The notes below the pieces were generated by a model. The model did no database searches. It saw nothing but the letters and a program-made list of their open reading frames with translations, and was not told the origin of the DNA. Positions 1,543-9,322 of a stretch of 64,000 nt of DNA are shown piece after piece. How positions within the stretch are numbered: the stretch's first letter is position 1; each line of letters begins with the position of its first letter. Origin of the DNA: Dehalococcoidia bacterium (GTDB lineage Bacteria > Chloroflexota > Dehalococcoidia > Lucifugimonadales > SHYT01); contig SHXZ01000002.1 of the NCBI GenBank assembly GCA_009693045.1, forward strand, positions 22,816 to 86,815. The letters are read 5' to 3'. A program made the translations under genes and the position numbers.

Positions 1543-3264
1543 ATGGAGGCTCACGAGACGACACTCCGGATCATCCTTGAGGGATAAAAGCAATTTGTTA
1601 TCCCGTTGTTTCAGCGGACGTATAGCTGGACTAAGGCACAGTGGGACGACCCCTGGAAAGACATCGTTGAAACATATGAACCAGGAAACGAGCCTCATCA
1701 CTTCTTAGGGCCGGTTGTAACCAAGTCGTTACCTGGTGCCCCCGACCAGGTTTCACCATTCCTGGTTATTGATGGCCAGCAACGGTTGACTATTTTGACG
1801 ATTTTGCTAGCAGCCCTCCGTGACGCGATCCACTCGACGGACGAAACTACGGCAGCTAAGATTCATGATCTGTATCTAACTAACAGGTACGTGTCGGGAC
1901 TCTCTACTTTCAAAATCCTTCCCAGACAGGCAGACAGGGAGGCGTACTTTAGTGTCATTACCCGGGCCCGGGAGCAAGCTTCTCACGGCTCGTCTCGAAT
2001 TTTGGACTGTTATAAGTACTTTTGCGACAAAATCGGGCACTCAGACGAAGATGATGTACAAGGTCTAAATCCAGGGCGTTTGGAGGGACCGATACTTAAC
2101 CTGGAGCTTGTCAGCATCACGATCGATGAGAGGGACAATGAGTACAGAAGTTTCGAAAGTCTCAATGCCAAGGGAGCCTCCCCCCCCCTGACCCAAGCCG
2201 ACCTGCTGCGGAACTACTTCTTCATGCGGATTTCTTGGTCTCGGCAAGACATTATATACAGGACCATCTGGCTTCCGCTGCAGCAGTTGCTTGGAGATCA
2301 TTTGGAAGACTTTTTCCGATATCTGTACATGAGCGACGGTGAGTTTGTGCGCGAAAGTGACGTCTACCAAAAGTGGAAAATTACGCTAGACAAGTTGACC
2401 TCCGATCAACTGCTGGAGCGTTTAAGGAACATAGCCCAGGCAGGCAGTTACTACAAGCGTCTAACTGACCCCGTAAGCGAGGCGGACCCAGAGGTGAGCG
2501 GGCGACTTGTTCGCCTAAACCGCTGGGGCAGCCAAACTATGTATCCCTTCCTGCTTTTGGCTTACGGTCAGGAAAAGGCCGGATATCCGGGTCCCTCGGG
2601 AATTGCCGAATTGCTGACGATGATCGAGTCATTCTTGGTTCGACGCCTGTTCTGCGGTGTCCCAACCAATGCTCTGAACAGGCTATTCCTCCGTGTTCCC
2701 TAACAGCTTCCCAAGCAAAAGTCGATAGTGGAGGGGACCTGCGAGGCGTTGGCAGACCCCGGGAAGCGGTGGCCACGGGACAACGAGTTCCTGAAGGCAA
2801 TTCGTACTTACTCACTGTACACGGACAGCCGTGCTGAACAGCGTCGTCTCGTCTTGGAAAGCCTTGAGCTAATCTACGGTGTGAAGGAGAGGGCTGTCCT
2901 TGACGGCTTAACAGTGGAGCACGTCATGCCCCAGTCCTTGACCCCTGAATGGCGAGAGGCGCTCGGAGAGCGGGCAGACGAAATTCATCGCCAGTTTCTT
3001 CATACGCTTGGCAACCTAACCCTTACGGGGTACAACAGTCCCTTGAGTAACGATCCGTTTGCATCGAAGCGTAAGACTTTCGCGAGAAGCCCATTGGCGA
3101 TGAATCGGGAGATCGCCACGGAATCTACTTGGAGCGCCACGCAAATCCTCGAACGAGCCGACCGTCTTGGGGAAAAAGCACTCAGCATTTGGCCTGGATC
3201 GCCGCCAAGAGTGTTAGGACAATTGCTCAGAGACGATGGTACCATAGAGGACATTGTGGAATAG
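1543..3264 (+). pseudogene. DUF262-DUF1524 (GmrSD/SspE-like) nuclease interrupted by two in-frame TAA codons (1585, 2701)
   Basis: One reading frame: MEAHETTLRIILEG*KQFVIPLFQRTYSW...IDGQQRLT...FESLNAKG...RVP*QLP...TVEHVMPQ...LGNLTL; DUF262 QR/DGQQR/FxxxN motifs and HNH-like DUF1524 motif; lower GC. Confidence 0.85.
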
Positions 3265-3540: not shown

Positions 3541-4164
3541 TTGGCAGTCGGTTCGGCCCTCAAGGCCCCTCGTCACGAGTCCATCGGTTCCGCCGTGGCG
3601 GTGCAGGTGTTCCCTGCGTTCCGCCGCCGTGCGCCGGTGCGCCTTCTGAAGGACGCCGCTCGCGCGGCGTTGGCCGTCGGCGGGGCGGCCCAGGGCGCGT
3701 CGGCGAAGGTGGGCGTCGTCGTGGCGGACGACGAGACGGTGCGGACGCTGAACGCGCGGTACCGGGGCCTGGACGAAACCACGGATGTCCTCTCGTTCTC
3801 CTGGGCCAGCCCTGGACACTGGGAAGGGGAAGGGCACAGCCCCCTCGGCAAGCTCGGGGCAGGCTCTTCACCCTTCACTTCGGACGTTTTTCCGGCCATC
3901 GCCGGCGCCCGCAGCGGGCTCGGGGAAGTGATCATCTCCTACCCGCAGGCGGAGCGCCAGGCCAGGGAGCACGGCCACGCCACGCGGGACGAGTTGGCGC
4001 TGCTGGTGGCCCACGGCGTCCTGCACCTCCAGGGGCACGACCACGAGACGCCTGCCGATGAGGCGAGGATGAGGGCGCTGGAGTCGCGGGCGCTGGCGGG
4101 CCTGAGCATCGGGATCACTCTGATTGGGCGCACGCTGTTGGAGCGGAGCGGCCATGGTGGGTGA
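3541..4164 (+). CDS. ybeY: rRNA maturation RNase YbeY (start uncertain)
   Basis: LNARYRG...TDVLSF...LGEVIIS...HGVLHLQGHDH metal-binding motif. Confidence 0.92.
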   Translation: MAVGSALKAPRHESIGSAVAVQVFPAFRRRAPVRLLKDAARAALAVGGAAQGASAKVGVVVADDETVRTLNARYRGLDETTDVLSFSWASPGHWEGEGHSPLGKLGAGSSPFTSDVFPAIAGARSGLGEVIISYPQAERQAREHGHATRDELALLVAHGVLHLQGHDHETPADEARMRALESRALAGLSIGITLIGRTLLERSGHGG

Positions 4165-5845
4165 GGTGCTGTACCGGCGCTGGCGGCCTCGAAGGTTCGG
4201 GGACGTCTCCGGCCAGGAGATCGTGGTGACCACGCTGCGGCAGGCCGTGGCACAGGGGCGCGTGGCCCACGCGTACCTGTTCTGCGGGCCGCGCGGCACG
4301 GGCAAGACCAGCACGGCGCGCATCCTGGCCAAGGCGGTGAACTGCCTGGCGCCCCAGGGTGGCGAGCCGGACGGCACGTGCGCGATGTGTGTGGCCATTG
4401 ACGAGGGCCGCGCGCTTGACCTGGTGGAGATAGACGCCGCGAGCAACCGCGGTGTGGAGGACGCCCGCTCGCTCCGGGAGCGCGTGTTCGGCTCAGGCCC
4501 CGCCGAGGCGCGGTCCAAGGTGTACATCGTGGACGAAGTCCACATGCTGACTGACCCCGCGTTCAACACGCTGCTGAAGACGCTTGAGGAGCCCGCCCCG
4601 TGGGCCATCTTCATCCTGTGCACCACGGAGGCGGACAAGGTCCTCGCGACCGTCGTCTCGCGGTGCCAGCGGTTTGACTTCCGGCGTATCACCACCGCCG
4701 ACACCGTCGCGCGCCTGGAGACGATCTGCAAGGCCGAGGGATACACGGCGGAGCCGGAGGCGCTCGTCGCCGTCGCGAGGGCGTCCAGCGGGAGCCTGCG
4801 CGACGCGCTCAACCTGGTGGAGCAGCTCGCCTCGGCGTACGGACGCGCCGTAACCACCGCAGGCGTCCAGGAGATGCTGGGCCTGCGCGGCAGCGAGCAC
4901 GCGCTGCCGCTGGTGCGGCACGTCCTCAAGCGCGACGTGGCGCAGGCTCTGGCCCTGCTCAACACGGCAGGCAACGCCGGCGTGGACATGCGGGTGTTGC
5001 ACCGCGAGGCGCTGGCGCACCTGCGCGCGGTGCTCCTCATCCGGTCGGGCGTCGGCGACTCGGTGGAGCTGCCGAAGGATGCGGTGGAGGAGTTGCGCGC
5101 CCTCGCGCCGCAGACGACGATGGAGTTGGTGCTGCGCGCCATCCGCGCGTTCGCGCAGGCCAACGTGAAGTCGGCGGAGGGTATCCCGTCGCTGCCGCTG
5201 GAGCTGGCGGTCGTTGAGGTGTGCGCGGACCAGGCCCCGGCGACGCCAACGGAGGCGCCGAGGCAAGCTGCGCCGTCCCGCCCGCCTGCGCCCGCTGCGT
5301 CGCGGCCTCCAGGCACGGCGACGGCGCCCTACCCTCCGCGCGGCGCTCCCACGGCGAGACCTCCGGTGGCGGGCGCTCAGGGATGGCCCGCCCCGGCGAG
5401 GCCGCCAGTCAGTTCACCCGCTGCTTCGGCCACAGGGATGCGGCCTGCGGCGTCAGCCCAGCCGGCAGCGCCCAGCCCGCGCTCCGCGCCACCGTCGCCG
5501 CAGTGGGAGGCGTTGCTGAAGGCCCTCAGGCTGACGAAGGGCAAGAGCATAAACGTCGGCAGCATGGTCAACAGCTGCAGCGAGCACCGGGTGGAGGGCA
5601 ACGAGTTGGTGCTGGTGTTCCAGAGCGCCTCCAACATGGAGCGCCTTCAAGCCGAGCTTGAGCAGCCGGAGATGTGCGCGGTGGTGCAAAAGGCGGTGTG
5701 CGAGGCCTTTGGAGGCGACTACGAGCTCAAGCTCGTCGCGAACGGCAACGGCGCGGCGCAGGGCAAGCCGAGCGGGTACCTGGTGCGAGCGGCCATCGGC
5801 ATGGGCTCGCGGATCATTGAAGAAGCGAAGGAGGGCTTACCGTGA
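4154..5845 (+). CDS. dnaX: DNA polymerase III subunit gamma/tau
   Basis: LYRRWRP, GPRGTGKTS Walker A, Zn Cys, EIDAASN, DEVHML, SRC motif; Pro/Ala-rich linker. Confidence 0.96.
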   Translation: MVGEVLYRRWRPRRFGDVSGQEIVVTTLRQAVAQGRVAHAYLFCGPRGTGKTSTARILAKAVNCLAPQGGEPDGTCAMCVAIDEGRALDLVEIDAASNRGVEDARSLRERVFGSGPAEARSKVYIVDEVHMLTDPAFNTLLKTLEEPAPWAIFILCTTEADKVLATVVSRCQRFDFRRITTADTVARLETICKAEGYTAEPEALVAVARASSGSLRDALNLVEQLASAYGRAVTTAGVQEMLGLRGSEHALPLVRHVLKRDVAQALALLNTAGNAGVDMRVLHREALAHLRAVLLIRSGVGDSVELPKDAVEELRALAPQTTMELVLRAIRAFAQANVKSAEGIPSLPLELAVVEVCADQAPATPTEAPRQAAPSRPPAPAASRPPGTATAPYPPRGAPTARPPVAGAQGWPAPARPPVSSPAASATGMRPAASAQPAAPSPRSAPPSPQWEALLKALRLTKGKSINVGSMVNSCSEHRVEGNELVLVFQSASNMERLQAELEQPEMCAVVQKAVCEAFGGDYELKLVANGNGAAQGKPSGYLVRAAIGMGSRIIEEAKEGLP

Positions 5846-6144
5846 ACCGTCAGTTGATGCGGCAGGCGCAGCAGCTTCAGGCGGCACTGGTGAAGGCGGA
5901 GCAGGAGCTGGAGTCGGCGACGGTGGACGCGAGCGCGGGCGGTGGCGCGGTGAAGGTGGTGGTGACGGGCAAGGGCGTGGTGAAGTCGGTGAAGATTGAC
6001 CCGCAGGTAGTGGACCCGAAGGACGTGGCGATGCTGGAGGAGCTGGTGCTGGCGGCGGTGAACGAAGGGCAGCAGAAGGCGCAGGACATGGCGCAGAAGC
6101 GCATGTCAGCGCTCACGGGTGGGATGAAGATACCGGGGCTGTAA
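5842..6144 (+). CDS. ybaB: YbaB/EbfC nucleoid-associated protein
   Basis: MRQAQQLQ...GGGAVKV...IDPQVVDP...LEELVLAAVN; follows dnaX. Confidence 0.93.
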   Translation: MNRQLMRQAQQLQAALVKAEQELESATVDASAGGGAVKVVVTGKGVVKSVKIDPQVVDPKDVAMLEELVLAAVNEGQQKAQDMAQKRMSALTGGMKIPGL

Positions 6145-6181
6145 GAACTCTTCGTCAGGTTAGTAGCGATAAGGGGCTTCA

Positions 6182-7324
6182 GTGGTTACGGCGGCGCGGC
6201 AAGAAACCTCGGTTATCCCTTTACTCCTTGTTCCTCAGTTCGGTCAAGGGAATCCCGAAGCGGAGGGACTGTTTAAACGTGGCCTAGCCGCGCATCGAGG
6301 CGGACAATATACAGAGGCGGAGGCGGCTTACCGAGAGGTGTTGACACGTCACCCGGATTCACCAGCAACCAACCATAATTTAGCGGTATTGTTAGCTCAA
6401 ACTGCGAGGGTAGTCGAAGCGGAAGGGCTGTATCGTACTGCACTAAAGCAATGGCCGAATCAGCCTGAAATTTACAGTAATCTGGGCGTTCTCTTGGCGG
6501 AAATAGAACGTTACACCGAAGCGCTGGTCGCCTATCAAAAGGCGGCAGCATTGGGATATGCGCCAGCCAGCTACAATCTTGGGAACTTGCTGGTCCGCTT
6601 TGGGAGAGAACGCGACGCAGAGAGTGCGTATCGAGCGGCGCTTGAGCTAGATCCGAAGTTGTTCCAGGCACACCTCAATCTAGGTGTCGTACTAGAACAA
6701 CGCACTGAGCACTTGGAAGCCGAAACGGAATATCGCAAAGCACTGGAGAACCGTCCAGACTACCCAGTAGCCCTTCACAACTTAAGCAGATTGCTCGTCA
6801 GCGTAGGCCGCTTTGAGGAAGCAAAAAAACCTCTCCGCCGGTTGGTAGCCCTATGCCCGGACGATCCTGAAGCACATAGCCTTCTTGGAGTAGTACTTGC
6901 AGCGACCGGAGCAGCGGTTGACGCTTTACGAGAATTTGAAGCAGCGTATGAGCACCGGCTCCAGCGTTCCGATAGAGGCGAATCGTTGTACCGAGCCTGG
7001 GCAGCCTTGTTATTGCAGGAGGGAATCGAGGCCATATCCTCACGCGGCGTCACCGAAACCGAGAAGTGGATAAATGCGTTCGTTGACTTGCAGCGCCGAG
7101 CTAAGAAAGATCGGATGCTAAAGGTAGTCAAGGAAGCTACCCAAGCGGTTAAAGCAAATGCAACCAAGGAATTCCAGTCAGCACTTAACGCCTTTTTGCT
7201 GGGTGTTAGGCTCGCGGCTATTCAAGACCTGTGGGAGGGGTGGGACGCACTCGCTAAGGAAGTCAGCAAACGCTGGCCAAAGGGCCGGTCCGCTGTTGAC
7301 GTGATCCGAGAGATGCGTGACTAA
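6182..7324 (+). CDS. TPR-repeat protein (~7 repeats) with C-terminal VapB-like antitoxin tail
   Basis: ~34-aa repeats with NLG/A..A..Y..AL..P pattern; C-terminus WDALAKEVSKRWPKGRSAVDVIREMRD; lower GC; stop overlaps next start (TAATG). Confidence 0.8.
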   Translation: MVTAARQETSVIPLLLVPQFGQGNPEAEGLFKRGLAAHRGGQYTEAEAAYREVLTRHPDSPATNHNLAVLLAQTARVVEAEGLYRTALKQWPNQPEIYSNLGVLLAEIERYTEALVAYQKAAALGYAPASYNLGNLLVRFGRERDAESAYRAALELDPKLFQAHLNLGVVLEQRTEHLEAETEYRKALENRPDYPVALHNLSRLLVSVGRFEEAKKPLRRLVALCPDDPEAHSLLGVVLAATGAAVDALREFEAAYEHRLQRSDRGESLYRAWAALLLQEGIEAISSRGVTETEKWINAFVDLQRRAKKDRMLKVVKEATQAVKANATKEFQSALNAFLLGVRLAAIQDLWEGWDALAKEVSKRWPKGRSAVDVIREMRD

Positions 7325-7773
7325 TGCCTGAGTTTGTACTGGACGTCAACGTATTGATCGCTGATCTTGTTGAACGCCAGGATAACAATCAATTTACGAG
7401 AGCGCAGTCTTATCTCGCCCAAGTCCGAAGTGGTTCAGCCAGGGCTCACATACCGTCAATGATGTTGGTAGAGCTGTGTTCAGGACTATTCCGGGAATTG
7501 CAAAACTCCGATGAGGCTACTGTTTTGGCAGCAGAAGGTCGAAAACGGCTGGGCATACTAATTAAGATCAGAAATGTTATTGAATATGACTTGGATGTCA
7601 GAAGAGCTAATCAAGCCGGGGATATGGCGATTCGCTACGGTCTTTCGGGCGCAGACGCTATTTATGCGCAGCTCTCAGAAGAGCTTGCCCTCGACCTAGT
7701 AACATTTGATGAGAGAACTCTAGCGGACCGCCTCCGCCGTGGCGGCTATACCAGCGTGGTGGTGCCGACATGA
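7324..7773 (+). CDS. PIN-domain (VapC-family) ribonuclease
   Basis: FVLDVNV...LVE...LSGADAIY...LVTFD acidic catalytic set; stop overlaps recR start (ATGA). Confidence 0.85.
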   Translation: MPEFVLDVNVLIADLVERQDNNQFTRAQSYLAQVRSGSARAHIPSMMLVELCSGLFRELQNSDEATVLAAEGRKRLGILIKIRNVIEYDLDVRRANQAGDMAIRYGLSGADAIYAQLSEELALDLVTFDERTLADRLRRGGYTSVVVPT

Positions 7774-8402
7774 CCACCCCACGCCCCTACCCCTCCGACG
7801 CCCTGCCCACCGTCGTGCCCGTGGCGCGGCTGGTGGAGGCGTTCCACCAGCTTCCGGGCATCGGCCCCAAGACCGCGCAGCGCCTGGCCTACTACGTCAT
7901 ACGCATGCCCGTTGAGCAGGCCCGCGCCCTCGCCGAGGCCATCCTGGGCGTCAAGGACGGCATCGGCCTCTGTTCGCAGTGCCAGAACATCACCGACCAG
8001 GATCCGTGCGCCGTCTGCTCGGGGGCGGACCGCGACCGCAGCGTCATTTGCGTCGTTGAGGAGGCGCTGGACGTGCTGGCGCTGGAACGCACGCGTAGCT
8101 ACAAGGGCCTGTACCACGTTCTCCACGGCGTCATCTCCCCTATGGACGCCGTAGGCCCGGAAGACCTGAAGATCAGAGAGCTCCTTCACCGCCTGGACGA
8201 CGGCGTGGTGAGCGAGGTTGTTCTGGCGCTCAACCCAAACCTGACCGGCGACGCTACGGCTATGTACCTGCAGCGGCTCCTCAAGCCGCTGGGCATGCGA
8301 GTGACGCGGCTGGCGCGCGGGCTGCCCGTGGGCGGCGAGCTGGAGTACGCCGATGAAATGACGCTCATCCGCGCGCTCGAGGGCCGCCAGGAGCTGCCGT
8401 GA
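7770..8402 (+). CDS. recR: recombination mediator RecR
   Basis: LPGIGPKTAQRLAY HhH, CSQC..CAVC Zn finger, YHVLHG, RLARGLPVGGELEYAD. Confidence 0.96.
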   Translation: MTTPRPYPSDALPTVVPVARLVEAFHQLPGIGPKTAQRLAYYVIRMPVEQARALAEAILGVKDGIGLCSQCQNITDQDPCAVCSGADRDRSVICVVEEALDVLALERTRSYKGLYHVLHGVISPMDAVGPEDLKIRELLHRLDDGVVSEVVLALNPNLTGDATAMYLQRLLKPLGMRVTRLARGLPVGGELEYADEMTLIRALEGRQELP

Positions 8403-8500
8403 GGCAGGATTCAACCTTGCATCCTTCGCGCCAAACCAACGTGGTGGCGCGGAACATAGCTGGCTTTGGCGGGTAAGCTGCGTGCCTTCGGAGTGCCATC

Positions 8501-9322
8501 TTGACGCAGGAAACGGGAGCGGAGCGGGCTGCGGGCACCGCCGACCGGCTGTACAAGACCGAGGCGATCATCCTCAAGCAGTTGCCAACTGGCGAGGCTG
8601 ACCGGCTGCTGACCTTCTACACACCGTACCTTGGCAAGCTCCGGGCCATCGCCAGAGGGGCGCGGCGTCCCAAGAGCAAGCTGGTGGGGCACGTGGAGCC
8701 GTTGGTGCACGTCCAGTTGCTCGTCGCCAGGGGCCGCAACCTTGACGTGGTGAGCCAGGCCGAGACACTGGAGCCGTTTGTGGCGATACGCAGCAGTCTG
8801 GAGGCCACCTCGCGCGGCCTGTACTGCGCGGAGCTGATGGACGCGTTCGCGCCGGACGGCTACGCAAACCCGCAGCTCTTCGGGCTACTGCTCGCGACGC
8901 TTGGACGGCTGAACACCGGGGAGACCGAGGTCGCGCTCCGCTGGTTTGAGCTTCGCCTTCTCCATCTCACCGGCTTTCGGCCCGAGCTGCACCAGTGCGC
9001 CCAGTGCGGGAACGCGCTGGCGATGGAGGCCTGCGGGTTCAGTCCAGAGGCGGGCGGGGCGCTGTGCTCCGGGTGCCGTGGCTCCGCCGCAGTTCAGGCA
9101 GGGGCCCTCGTGCCGACGCGCATGAGCCTCAACGCCCTGAAGTCCCTGCGGTACCTCCAGGCGAACGACTACCAGGAGGCGCGACGGCTGCGGCTTCCGA
9201 TGCCGCTGGCGCTGGAGCTTGAGGGACTGCTGCGGTTCTACATCCGGCACGTGCTAGAGCGTGATGTGCGCTCCACGGCGTTCCTGGACCACCTAAGGCG
9301 GGTGAGGGGGCGTGAGGGCTAG
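8501..9322 (+). CDS. recO: DNA repair protein RecO
   Basis: EAIILK...GEADRLLT...GKLRAIARGARRPKS; CAQC..CSGC Zn site. Confidence 0.93.
   Translation: MTQETGAERAAGTADRLYKTEAIILKQLPTGEADRLLTFYTPYLGKLRAIARGARRPKSKLVGHVEPLVHVQLLVARGRNLDVVSQAETLEPFVAIRSSLEATSRGLYCAELMDAFAPDGYANPQLFGLLLATLGRLNTGETEVALRWFELRLLHLTGFRPELHQCAQCGNALAMEACGFSPEAGGALCSGCRGSAAVQAGALVPTRMSLNALKSLRYLQANDYQEARRLRLPMPLALELEGLLRFYIRHVLERDVRSTAFLDHLRRVRGREG

What the first reader, a model, noticed from the sequence alone, without database searches (positions are those of the whole stretch)
6182..7773. TPR sensor fused to a VapB-type antitoxin tail, coupled to a PIN nuclease: candidate new sensor-gated toxin/defence system
Seen: a lower-GC two-gene cassette sits inside the normally contiguous dnaX-ybaB-recR operon. 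It is translationally coupled internally (TAATG) and to recR (ATGA). Gene 1 has ~7 TPRs, a helical linker and the terminal peptide WDALAKEVSKRWPKGRSAVDVIREMRD. Gene 2 is an intact PIN with LD..E..GADAIY..TFD. Recalled knowledge: W-P-x-G-x-S-A-V-[DE]-x-[IV]-R-E resembles the toxin-neutralising C-termini of small antitoxins that precede GADAxY-type VapC toxins, where the N-terminus is normally a short DNA-binding domain. Inference: the DNA-binding domain has been replaced by a TPR array that could bind a phage or stress protein and release the RNase (abortive infection). Unlike most other cassettes here, both genes are intact.
Basis: partly seen in the sequence, partly recalled or inferred. Interest (0 to 1): 0.85.

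Follow-up and report, generated by a model that had tools for sequence, protein, structure and literature searches.

The report
TPR antitoxin–PIN pair inside housekeeping operons
A toxin–antitoxin-like gene pair, whose antitoxin carries a protein-binding TPR array where a DNA-binding domain would normally be, sits wired into the dnaX–ybaB–recR–recO operon of a group of uncultured Chloroflexota, an unusual way for such a pair to be built and kept.

Summary
ORF 6182-7324 encodes 7 TPRs, a helical connector and a 35-residue tail. ORF 7324-7773 is an intact VapC-like PIN. The overlaps are TAATG and ATGA, and GC is 0.50-0.55 against 0.65-0.72 in the flanks.

The tail is homologous to the C-terminus of small Phd/YefM-type antitoxins that precede PIN genes, two of them in this same genome. 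A complex prediction places the tail over the PIN acidic pocket (score 0.78, best control 0.00).

The fusion is not a one-off. 23 loci in one Dehalococcoidia order carry it between ybaB and recR, and 3 genomes of other orders carry it between argF and der. In nearly all, the PIN stop overlaps the next gene's start.

Cassette and host trees share their deep split, so inheritance is mostly vertical. Against a near-identical relative, tail plus PIN have been swapped as a unit (dS about 2 versus 0.25 in recR), under purifying selection (dN/dS 0.24-0.30).

Low GC is a constant property of the cassette and does not show recent arrival.

The molecular reading (TPR antitoxin plus PIN toxin, no autoregulation, host-operon expression) is well supported. 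A phage-sensing or abortive-infection role has no direct support: no PADLOC match, and no defence-island context.

It is a new variant of VapBC.

The parts
4124..5845 (+). dnaX (clamp-loader tau/gamma), first gene of the host operon
   Evidence: Pfam DNA_pol3_delta2 at 9e-41 and further DnaX domains. It overlaps ybaB by 4 bases.
5842..6144 (+). ybaB/ebfC, upstream neighbour of the cassette
   Evidence: Pfam YbaB_DNA_bd at 1.2e-31.
6145..6181 (+). 37-base spacer with the Shine-Dalgarno-like AAGGGG at 6171-6176
   Evidence: Read from the sequence. No promoter-like or terminator-like site on the + strand between 3390 and 9512 (a consensus scan, so weak evidence).
6182..7324 (+). Gene 1: 380-aa TPR-connector-tail protein, the proposed antitoxin
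   Evidence: ORF, TPR families, model with pLDDT 90.8. Orthologues in 25 other loci.
6254..6952 (+). TPR array, residues 25-257, 7 repeats
   Evidence: 14 helices in the model. Foldseek best hits are consensus TPR superhelices and the O-GlcNAc transferase TPR domain, E 2e-13 to 1e-11. Repeat number varies among orthologues.
6953..7216 (+). Helical connector, residues 258-345, shared by the fused proteins only
   Evidence: No Pfam or NCBIfam family. Four helices in the model. Alignable across 20 fused proteins.
7217..7321 (+). Antitoxin-type tail, residues 346-380 (motif W..W..L..E[IV]S..WP.G.SAV..[IV]RE.R)
   Evidence: Homologous to the C-termini of small PhdYeFM_antitox proteins that precede PINs. 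W365 and R379 are invariant in 29 of 29 sequences. Predicted to contact the PIN acidic pocket.
7324..7773 (+). Gene 2: 149-aa VapC-like PIN nuclease, the proposed toxin
   Evidence: Pfam PIN at 4.3e-11. Acidic residues conserved. Nearest solved relatives are PAE0151 (1e-9), VapC 7by2, PAE2754 and VapC15. Belongs to a clade of TPR-linked PINs separated from Phd-linked PINs.
7061..7774 (+). Tract exchanged as a unit relative to the close relative L065 (end of connector, tail, whole PIN)
   Evidence: Nucleotide identity in 90-base windows falls from about 0.9 to 0.43-0.78 and returns to 0.96 at the recR start. dS is saturated in the tail and 1.95 in the PIN, against 0.25 in recR.
7770..8402 (+). 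recR; its start overlaps the PIN stop (ATGA)
   Evidence: Pfam RecR domains. The same 4-base overlap occurs in 10 of 10 loci and 14 of 15.
8501..9322 (+). recO, last gene of the conserved block
   Evidence: Pfam RecO_N and RecO_C. It follows recR in all loci long enough to show it.

Best explanation
The cassette is a VapBC-type (type II) toxin-antitoxin-like pair with an unusual antitoxin. Gene 2 encodes a VapC-like PIN nuclease. Gene 1 encodes a protein whose last ~35 residues are the toxin-binding tail of a Phd/YefM-class VapB antitoxin. That tail is grafted, through a four-helix connector, onto a TPR array that takes the place of the DNA-binding domain. The tail lies across the PIN's acidic active-site pocket and keeps the nuclease off (inferred). 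Without a DNA-binding domain the pair cannot repress a promoter of its own. Instead it is expressed as part of a host housekeeping operon (dnaX-ybaB-[TPR-tail]-[PIN]-recR-recO) and is translationally chained to the next gene by an ATGA overlap (inferred from gene layout). The tail and the PIN form a co-adapted unit that is exchanged between relatives by recombination, while the TPR part and the flanks follow the genome. What the TPR array binds is unknown. It could be a trigger that frees the PIN, or an anchor or stabiliser. Shown here: gene structure, domain content, tail homology, recurrence, purifying selection, co-inheritance of tail and PIN. Inferred: inhibition, RNase activity, lack of autoregulation, any trigger.
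For: (1) Tail homology. A whole-protein search of 41 relatives' genomes hit an 89-aa frame in the window's own genome over residues 348-379 (47 % identity, E 2.8e-4) and a 100-aa frame in G023. Both are PhdYeFM_antitox proteins (E 7e-12 and 7e-8, domain at residues 1-50), and each is followed by a PIN gene, broken in the first case and intact in the second.
(2) A 45-column tail profile finds matches in 45 of 401 genomes of the order. Of the 30 loci fetched, 13 are long tail proteins in the recR block and 17 are not. 11 of those 17 have a PIN next door.
(3) In the phylum sample, 21 of the 27 loci examined have a PIN beside the tail gene.
(4) Complex prediction of PIN plus 50-aa tail: scores 0.83, 0.78, 0.76, best of 3 controls 0.00, partner pLDDT at least 86, at least 89 % of contacts shared between runs. 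The interface includes PIN residues 7-10, 50, 108-111 and 128-129, which is the acidic pocket. The mark was reached by 58 of 80 solved complexes and 2 of 110 mismatched pairs, and these counts hold only roughly because my own alignments were used.
(5) The tail profile has no solved homologue (best E 0.064), so the pass is not recall of this same tail.
[quoted passage not shown] R379 is invariant here.
(7) No DNA-binding family was found in the 380-aa protein, and the model is all-helical TPR plus connector.
(8) dN/dS is 0.24-0.30 for the TPR part, the connector and the PIN (for the 35-codon tail dS is saturated and no ratio could be computed). dS rises from 0.12-0.27 in the flanks to saturation in the tail and 1.95 in the PIN, with sharp boundaries.
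(9) The tail tracks the PIN. P0002's tail is 33/35 identical to the window's, and P0004, the PIN from a contig of the same length and taken to be its partner, is 95 % identical. P0003's tail is 27/35 identical, and in L065, whose tail protein is P0003-like, the PIN is 49 % identical.
(10) The PIN stop overlaps the downstream gene's start by 4 bases in 10 of 10 loci, 14 of 15 and 3 of 3 der-site loci.
Against: No experiment shows toxicity, neutralisation or RNase activity. The complex score is a model's own confidence, and VapBC-type complexes in general are in the training data. Only one PIN and one tail were modelled, not the dimer. The tail helices have lower confidence in the monomer model (pLDDT 75 and 68), which fits folding on binding but does not prove it. 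The absence of an internal promoter rests on a sigma-70 consensus scan that may not suit this phylum. No RNA data could be obtained. Some copies are decaying: G020 has a stop in gene 1 and a split PIN, and L049 has a 57-aa PIN. So the pair is dispensable in some lineages. Both same-family relatives lack it.
Confidence: 0.7

Rival explanations
1. Sensor-gated defence. The TPR array binds a phage or stress protein, which pulls the tail off the PIN, and the freed RNase stops the infected cell (abortive infection).
For: The TPR fold is a generic peptide-binding superhelix. TPR repeat number and sequence vary widely among orthologues, from 7 repeats here to weak or no TPR matches in G025, G161 and G135. 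Deep allelic divergence and unit-wise exchange of tail plus PIN between near-identical backgrounds are what one sees in conflict genes. A fused toxin-antitoxin whose antitoxin part senses a phage capsid protein is known (CapRel SJ46, as described in a passage of bioRxiv 10.1101/2023.12.08.570793). A broken GmrSD restriction gene lies about 1 kb upstream of dnaX in this window.
Against: Neither protein matches a PADLOC model (0 families for the PIN, one weak repeat match for the TPR protein). All 26 loci with context lie inside housekeeping operons at two fixed sites, not in variable islands. Cassette divergence tracks host divergence (Mantel r 0.58 and 0.78, 0 of 2000 permutations) and the trees share their deep split. 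TPR dN/dS is 0.30 in the one close pair compared. No phage partner is known.
Confidence: 0.25
2. Selfish operon hitchhiker. The pair is an addiction module that survives by sitting just upstream of, and translationally chained to, a gene the cell needs (recR or der). It uses the host promoter in place of autoregulation, and the TPR array mainly stabilises the antitoxin.
For: Two different housekeeping operons host the same kind of cassette, always with the 4-base overlap to the next gene. Distribution is patchy: 13 of 401 genomes sampled in the order, and 1 of 3 in the window's family. Some copies are decayed. GC is lower than in recR in 10 of 10 loci, and also in the close relative L065. TPR-linked PINs form one clade (branch support 100), consistent with a single origin followed by a move between operons.
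Against: Purifying selection on the whole TPR protein and retention across a deep split of the order suggest more than a passive passenger, though addiction alone could give both. That recR translation depends on the overlap is not shown, and a GGTGG lies just upstream of the recR start.
Confidence: 0.3
3. Domesticated regulator. The PIN is a controlled RNase that acts on host RNAs, for example the operon transcript, tRNA or rRNA. The TPR protein couples its activity to the state of replication, repair or ribosome assembly.
For: Stable residence in the dnaX-ybaB-recR-recO and argF-der-plsY-gpsA blocks. Mostly vertical inheritance. Purifying selection.
Against: The two host operons have unrelated functions, so no specific pathway link is implied. 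Most genomes of the order sampled lack the tail altogether (356 of 401). Alleles of tail plus PIN are swapped between close relatives, which is unusual for a housekeeping regulator.
Confidence: 0.12
4. Not a toxin-antitoxin pair at all. The PIN is a structure-specific DNA-repair nuclease working with RecR and RecO, and the TPR protein is its scaffold.
For: Position between ybaB and recR in 23 loci.
Against: The same cassette type sits next to der, with no recR nearby, in 3 genomes. The PIN's relatives are VapC-type proteins. Its sister clade pairs with Phd antitoxins. The partner's tail is an antitoxin tail.
Confidence: 0.04

Closest known systems
Small Phd/YefM-class VapB antitoxin plus VapC (PIN) pairs, including two in this same genome (G000 contig C8; loci L004 and L124)
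   Same: Same C-terminal tail motif (W..M/W..L..E[IV]..WP.G.SAV.AVRE.RR). The antitoxin gene lies directly before a GADAxY/TxD-type PIN with overlapping or abutting stop and start.
   Different: Those antitoxins are 86-90 aa with a PhdYeFM_antitox domain at residues 1-50. Here that domain is absent, and 345 residues of TPR array plus connector precede the tail. Their PINs form a separate clade (branch support 100). They are not found in the recR or der blocks: 0 of the 17 non-cassette loci and 0 of 27 loci.
Solved VapBC/FitAB complexes (e.g. Rickettsia felis VapBC2, PMC3326315, passages read)
   Same: A PIN toxin inhibited by an antitoxin C-terminus that fills the groove and reaches the acidic residues with an Arg. 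The predicted interface here covers the equivalent residues, and R379 is invariant.
   Different: Those antitoxins bind DNA (AbrB or RHH folds) and repress their own operon. Sequence similarity is low: the best PIN hit in the PDB is PAE0151 at 1e-9, and the tail has no PDB homologue.
CapRel SJ46-type fused toxin-antitoxin sensors (as described in a passage of bioRxiv 10.1101/2023.12.08.570793)
   Same: The concept of an antitoxin element attached to a protein-sensing module, so that binding of a ligand frees the toxin.
   Different: Unrelated toxin (a tRNA pyrophosphokinase), a single polypeptide, and a proven phage trigger. Here there are two genes, a PIN, a TPR array and no known trigger. 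The likeness is one of idea only.
Stand-alone archaeal PIN proteins PAE0151 and PAE2754 (PDB 2fe1, 1v8o)
   Same: Closest solved sequences to the PIN profile (E 1e-9 and 6e-4).
   Different: No TPR partner and no information on an inhibitor.

Membership tests
VapBC-type type II toxin-antitoxin | Toxin is a PIN domain with the conserved acidic residues | tested here: met
   PF01850 at 4.3e-11. D7, E50 and D111 are invariant in 31 of 31 sequences, and D129 is kept in at least 90 %.
VapBC-type type II toxin-antitoxin | Antitoxin gene directly upstream, in one operon, with overlapping or abutting reading frames | tested here: met
   TAATG overlap at 7322-7326. Comparable junctions in 10 other loci.
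VapBC-type type II toxin-antitoxin | Antitoxin C-terminus binds the toxin and occludes the active site | tested here: inconclusive
   Prediction only: score 0.78 against a best control of 0.00, with an interface over residues 7-10, 50, 108-111 and 128-129. Supported by tail homology and tail-PIN co-exchange. There is no binding experiment.
VapBC-type type II toxin-antitoxin | Antitoxin N-terminus is a DNA-binding domain (AbrB, RHH, Phd/YefM or HTH) that autoregulates the operon | tested here: not met
   Only TPR families in Pfam and NCBIfam, and an all-helical TPR model. This is the feature that makes it a variant and not an ordinary member.
VapBC-type type II toxin-antitoxin | Toxin arrests growth and the antitoxin rescues | not testable with these tools
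   Needs expression experiments.
Phd/YefM antitoxin family (PF02604) | Phd/YefM N-terminal fold | tested here: not met
   No PF02604 match in the 380-aa protein, while small tail-bearing relatives match at 7e-12 to 4e-8.
Phd/YefM antitoxin family (PF02604) | C-terminal toxin-binding segment of the PIN-associated subfamily | tested here: met
   Alignment of 29 tails, 19 from fused proteins and 10 from small Phd-type proteins. Profile hits.
Known anti-phage defence systems (PADLOC-DB 2.0) | Match to a defence-system protein model | tested here: not met
   PIN: 0 families. TPR protein: one weak repeat-region match to PrimPol at 5e-4.
Known anti-phage defence systems (PADLOC-DB 2.0) | Residence in variable defence islands | tested here: not met
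   26 of 26 loci lie inside the dnaX-ybaB-recR-recO or argF-der-plsY-gpsA blocks. Only this window has a broken GmrSD gene nearby.
TPR repeat proteins | Tandem 34-residue helix-turn-helix repeats forming a superhelix | tested here: met
   TPR_2 at 4e-31 and others, 7 repeats in the model, Foldseek hits to consensus TPRs at 2e-13.

The most novel reading that the evidence does not exclude
A new class of operon-embedded toxin-antitoxin module. The antitoxin has given up DNA binding for a TPR sensor. Expression and retention are secured by splicing the pair into essential housekeeping operons with translational coupling to the next gene. The PIN is released when the TPR array binds a cellular or viral protein. 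This would be a checkpoint RNase wired directly to the replication/repair and ribosome-assembly operons of uncultured Dehalococcoidia (one relative's record is titled SAR202 cluster).
Probability: 0.25. Interest if true: 0.8.

Novelty: new variant of a known kind. Interest (0 to 1): 0.62.

Why it matters
What chromosomal toxin-antitoxin pairs do, and how their toxins are released, is still debated. This family offers a natural dissection of the problem. The toxin-binding tail is kept and the DNA-binding autoregulatory domain is gone. A ligand-binding TPR array takes its place, and the host operon supplies transcription.

The modular structure is visible in evolution: tail plus PIN are swapped as one unit, while the TPR array follows the genome. 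The design lends itself to simple tests with tail-only, tail-deleted and TPR pull-down constructs.

The repeated embedding upstream of recR and der with a 4-base overlap also suggests a way for such modules to persist outside mobile islands. Four full-text searches did not turn up a description of this.

The hosts are uncultured Chloroflexota, mostly labelled Dehalococcoidia, with one record titled SAR202 cluster. A paper reporting cultivation of SAR202 bacteria appeared in a search listing only (PMC10444878), so experiments in a native host may become possible.

Tried and rejected
- Word-indexed search of the tail (residues 335-380) against shorter proteins: 1 candidate, none scored. The tool needs shared 5-residue words, so this blank was overturned by the genome searches.
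- Word-indexed searches of the C-terminal 126 residues and of the PIN gave only 2 and 1 close relatives. The exhaustive PIN search gave 110 hits at E <= 0.001 but carries no context.
- Pfam and NCBIfam on the C-terminal 121 and 58 residues: nothing above noise.
- The search for related loci with the mixed tail alignment A4 failed for lack of a conserved stretch. It was repeated with fused tails only (A5).
- No RNA holder was listed for 5842-8402.
- Alignment of the ybaB-proximal spacer with that of cassette-free relatives was uninformative about the exact insertion point.
- The Foldseek PDB search gave only generic TPR superhelices and no hint of a ligand.
- The promoter/terminator scan gave no + strand site between 3390 and 9512, but it is a sigma-70 consensus scan.
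- I considered and rejected the idea that low GC marks recent horizontal arrival in this genome. The same deficit is seen in 10 of 10 loci and in the near-identical relative L065.
- I considered a DNA-repair role with RecR and rejected it because of the der-site cassettes.
- Supplementary files of papers were not consulted. Lists of toxin-antitoxin families in such supplements might already include this fusion.
Full report
**What is in the sequence**

On the + strand the window carries these ORFs:
- dnaX, 4124-5845
- ybaB, 5842-6144
- a 380-aa ORF, 6182-7324
- a 149-aa ORF, 7324-7773
- recR, 7770-8402
- recO, 8501-9322

Pfam identifies the four housekeeping genes. It finds many TPR families in the 380-aa protein (E down to 4e-31) and a PIN domain (PF01850, 4.3e-11) in the 149-aa protein.

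The junctions are TAATG (7322-7326) and ATGA (7770-7773). AAGGGG lies five bases before the GTG start. GC is 0.50-0.55 inside the two genes and 0.65-0.72 outside.

An AlphaFold2 model built on 20 orthologues (mean pLDDT 90.8, pTM 0.81) shows:
- a disordered N-terminus;
- seven TPRs (14 helices, residues 25-257);
- four connector helices (267-345);
- two short tail helices (350-364 and 371-379) of lower confidence.

**What the tail is**

The last 121 residues match no Pfam or NCBIfam family. A word-indexed search of the tail against shorter proteins found nothing.

A six-frame search of 41 related genomes with the whole protein was more telling. Besides TPR noise it hit an 89-aa frame on another contig of the window's own genome (residues 348-379, 47 % identity) and a 100-aa frame in G023.

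Both are 87-aa proteins with a PhdYeFM_antitox domain at residues 1-50 (E 7e-12 and 7e-8). Both have a C-terminus that aligns with the window's tail. Each is followed directly by a PIN gene: a frameshifted remnant in the first case and an intact 140-aa gene in the second. A second, intact small pair lies on the same contig of the window's genome.

Profiles of the tail find it in these samples:

| Sample | Genomes with a match |
|---|---|
| order | 45 of 401 |
| phylum | 29 of 401 |
| class | 15 of 401 |

Outside the fused family the carriers are small Phd-type proteins. Longer frames there proved to be over-extended ORFs with an internal Phd start. In the phylum sample, 21 of the 27 loci examined have a PIN next door.

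In 29 aligned tails, W365 and R379 are invariant and S370 and A371 nearly so. It can also be made more precise: this is the toxin-binding end of a Phd/YefM-class VapB.

**Does the tail bind the PIN?**

A complex prediction with my alignments of 31 PINs and 28 tails gave scores of 0.83, 0.78 and 0.76, against 0.00 for the best of three controls. Partner pLDDT was at least 86, and at least 89 % of contacts were shared between runs.

The interface includes PIN residues 7-10, 50, 108-111 and 128-129, which is the acidic pocket. The tool's mark was reached by 58 of 80 solved complexes and 2 of 110 mismatched pairs. These counts hold only roughly, because my own alignments were used.

The tail profile has no homologue among solved structures (best E 0.064). 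VapBC-type complexes in general are solved, however, so the pass shows likeness and not proof.

Passages of the Rickettsia felis VapBC2 paper (PMC3326315) state three things. [quoted passage not shown] The antitoxin C-terminus fills the toxin groove. An Arg contacts the acidic residues. The invariant R379 fits that picture.

**The fusion is a family with a fixed address**

Of the 30 loci fetched in the order survey, 13 (the window's own included) show a long tail-bearing protein followed by a PIN, recR and recO. Where the contig reaches far enough, dnaX and ybaB precede it. These 13 come from 9 families.

A pattern scan of named genomes found 16 loci, of which 15 have the same arrangement. Six of those 15 duplicate loci already counted, leaving 9 new ones. 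The record titles read Chloroflexota, Dehalococcoidia or SAR202 cluster. The sixteenth, from a Thermomicrobiales record, is an array of small Phd-PIN pairs.

A metagenome contig adds one more locus (L065). That makes 23 recR-site loci.

In three genomes of other orders of the same class (G643, G847, G925), a TPR-connector-tail protein of 347-351 aa and a PIN sit between argF and der, followed by plsY and gpsA.

The PIN stop overlaps the start of the next gene by four bases in 10 of 10 loci, 14 of 15 and 3 of 3 der-site loci. The one exception (L056) has an extra connector-plus-tail ORF after the PIN.

A few copies are decaying. G020 has a stop in gene 1 and a split PIN. L049 has a 57-aa PIN.

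In a PIN tree, all 26 TPR-linked or close-representative PINs lie on one side of a branch with support 100, and the 10 Phd-linked PINs lie on the other. The der-site PINs group together with support 84 (quick method). This fits one origin of the fusion and a later move between operons.

**Inherited or mobile?**

Both same-family relatives (recR 76-77 % identical) have ybaB and recR 38 and 23 bp apart with no cassette. So do G003 and G007. The cassette is therefore patchy.

Yet across 16 complete loci, cassette divergence follows host divergence. Mean pairwise identities are recR 0.68, ybaB 0.67, PIN 0.43 and connector-plus-tail 0.42. Mantel r is 0.58 for recR against PIN and 0.78 for recR against connector-plus-tail, with 0 of 2000 permutations as high.

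Host and cassette trees share the same 7-versus-9 split (support 100 and 99) and most sub-clades, with one supported local conflict.

The cassette has lower GC than recR in 10 of 10 loci. It is also low in L065, whose flanks are 94-99 % identical in protein to the window's. Low GC is therefore a standing property of the cassette and does not mark recent arrival here.

**Modular exchange**

Against L065 the TPR-tail protein is 79 % identical, but the PIN only 49 %. Nei-Gojobori estimates are:

| Region | dS | dN/dS |
|---|---|---|
| ybaB, dnaX, recR, recO | 0.12-0.27 | 0.04-0.25 |
| TPR part | 0.36 | 0.30 |
| connector | 0.57 | 0.29 |
| tail | saturated | not computable |
| PIN | 1.95 | 0.24 |

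Nucleotide identity in 90-base windows drops from about 0.9 at roughly 7061, falls to 0.43 in the PIN, and returns to 0.96 exactly at the recR start.

So the tail and the PIN are old alleles placed into a young background by recombination, and both are under purifying selection.

The protein data agree. P0002's tail is 33/35 identical to the window's, and the PIN P0004 is 95 % identical. I take P0004 to be P0002's partner because both come from a contig of 3495 bases, although I could not read that contig. P0003's tail is 27/35 identical, and in L065, which carries a P0003-like protein, the PIN is 49 % identical.

Tail and PIN travel together, as expected of an interacting pair.

**Interpretation**

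The best-supported reading is a VapBC-type pair whose antitoxin has lost the DNA-binding domain and gained a TPR array. Such a protein cannot repress its own promoter. This fits the fact that every copy is embedded in a host operon and chained to the next gene.

No + strand promoter-like or terminator-like site interrupts dnaX to recO (weak evidence).

What the TPR array binds is open. Foldseek finds only generic peptide-binding TPR superhelices.

The defence reading has no direct support: no PADLOC match, no island context, mostly vertical descent, and no excess of amino-acid change in the TPR part of the one close pair. It is not excluded either, because variable repeat number and deep allele divergence are typical of conflict genes.

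I rank the biological roles as follows:
1. persistence as an operon-embedded addiction module;
2. a ligand-gated or defence role;
3. a domesticated regulatory role.

A repair-nuclease role with RecR is unlikely because of the der-site copies.

**Novelty**

Four full-text searches found no description of a TPR-fused VapB or of this operon-embedded arrangement:
- antitoxin, tetratricopeptide, PIN domain, VapB;
- SAR202, toxin-antitoxin;
- antitoxin, TPR, VapC, fusion;
- antitoxin, DNA-binding domain, replaced, sensor domain, phage.

In the DefensePredictor paper (PMC13092281, passages read) the PIN systems DS-3 and DS-5 are different in build. Supplements were not available.

I class the finding as a new variant of a known kind.

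Noticed in passing
window 1606-3264 (+): A GmrSD-type (PADLOC Orf5/HEC-06) type IV restriction gene in a low-GC island (GC 0.49-0.57). It is split by one in-frame stop at 2701-2703 into an N-terminal ORF (GmrSD_N, 6e-26) and a C-terminal ORF (GmrSD_C, 1e-26). It is probably a pseudogene.
   Followed up: partly
G000 contig C8: L004 1016-1785 and L124 1390-2076: Two ordinary small Phd/YefM-tail antitoxin plus PIN pairs about 4 kb apart in the window's own genome. One has a frameshifted PIN remnant and the other is intact. Their tails resemble the TPR protein's tail, so cross-talk between the three pairs is conceivable.
   Followed up: partly
L056 / L024 (534-896): In one genome the PIN is followed by a second, 120-aa ORF made of connector plus tail only, before recR. 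It looks like a partial duplication of the antitoxin gene. This is the only locus where the PIN does not overlap recR.
   Followed up: no
L059 1573-3540: A Thermomicrobiales record carries a tandem array of PIN, Phd-tail, PIN, Phd-tail, PIN, showing local amplification of the small form.
   Followed up: no
window 8405-8533: The recR-recO spacer is almost unalignable with the close relative L065 (identity 0.31-0.32 in 90-base windows), although both flanking genes are about 90 % identical. This is an unexplained hypervariable or replaced spacer.
   Followed up: no
L026 (G020) and L049: Decaying copies of the cassette. One has a stop in the tail-protein gene with the PIN split into 69 + 73 aa. 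The other has a PIN truncated to 57 aa.
   Followed up: partly
L025 (G142) 1180-1635: One orthologue is only 151 aa, made of connector plus tail with no TPR array, yet it has an intact PIN and the usual overlap with recR. It is a natural TPR-less version that could inform what the TPR array is needed for.
   Followed up: no
L047 3548-4164: In this cassette-bearing locus recR itself is split into 169-aa and 45-aa ORFs. This may be a sequencing error or a disrupted recR.
   Followed up: no
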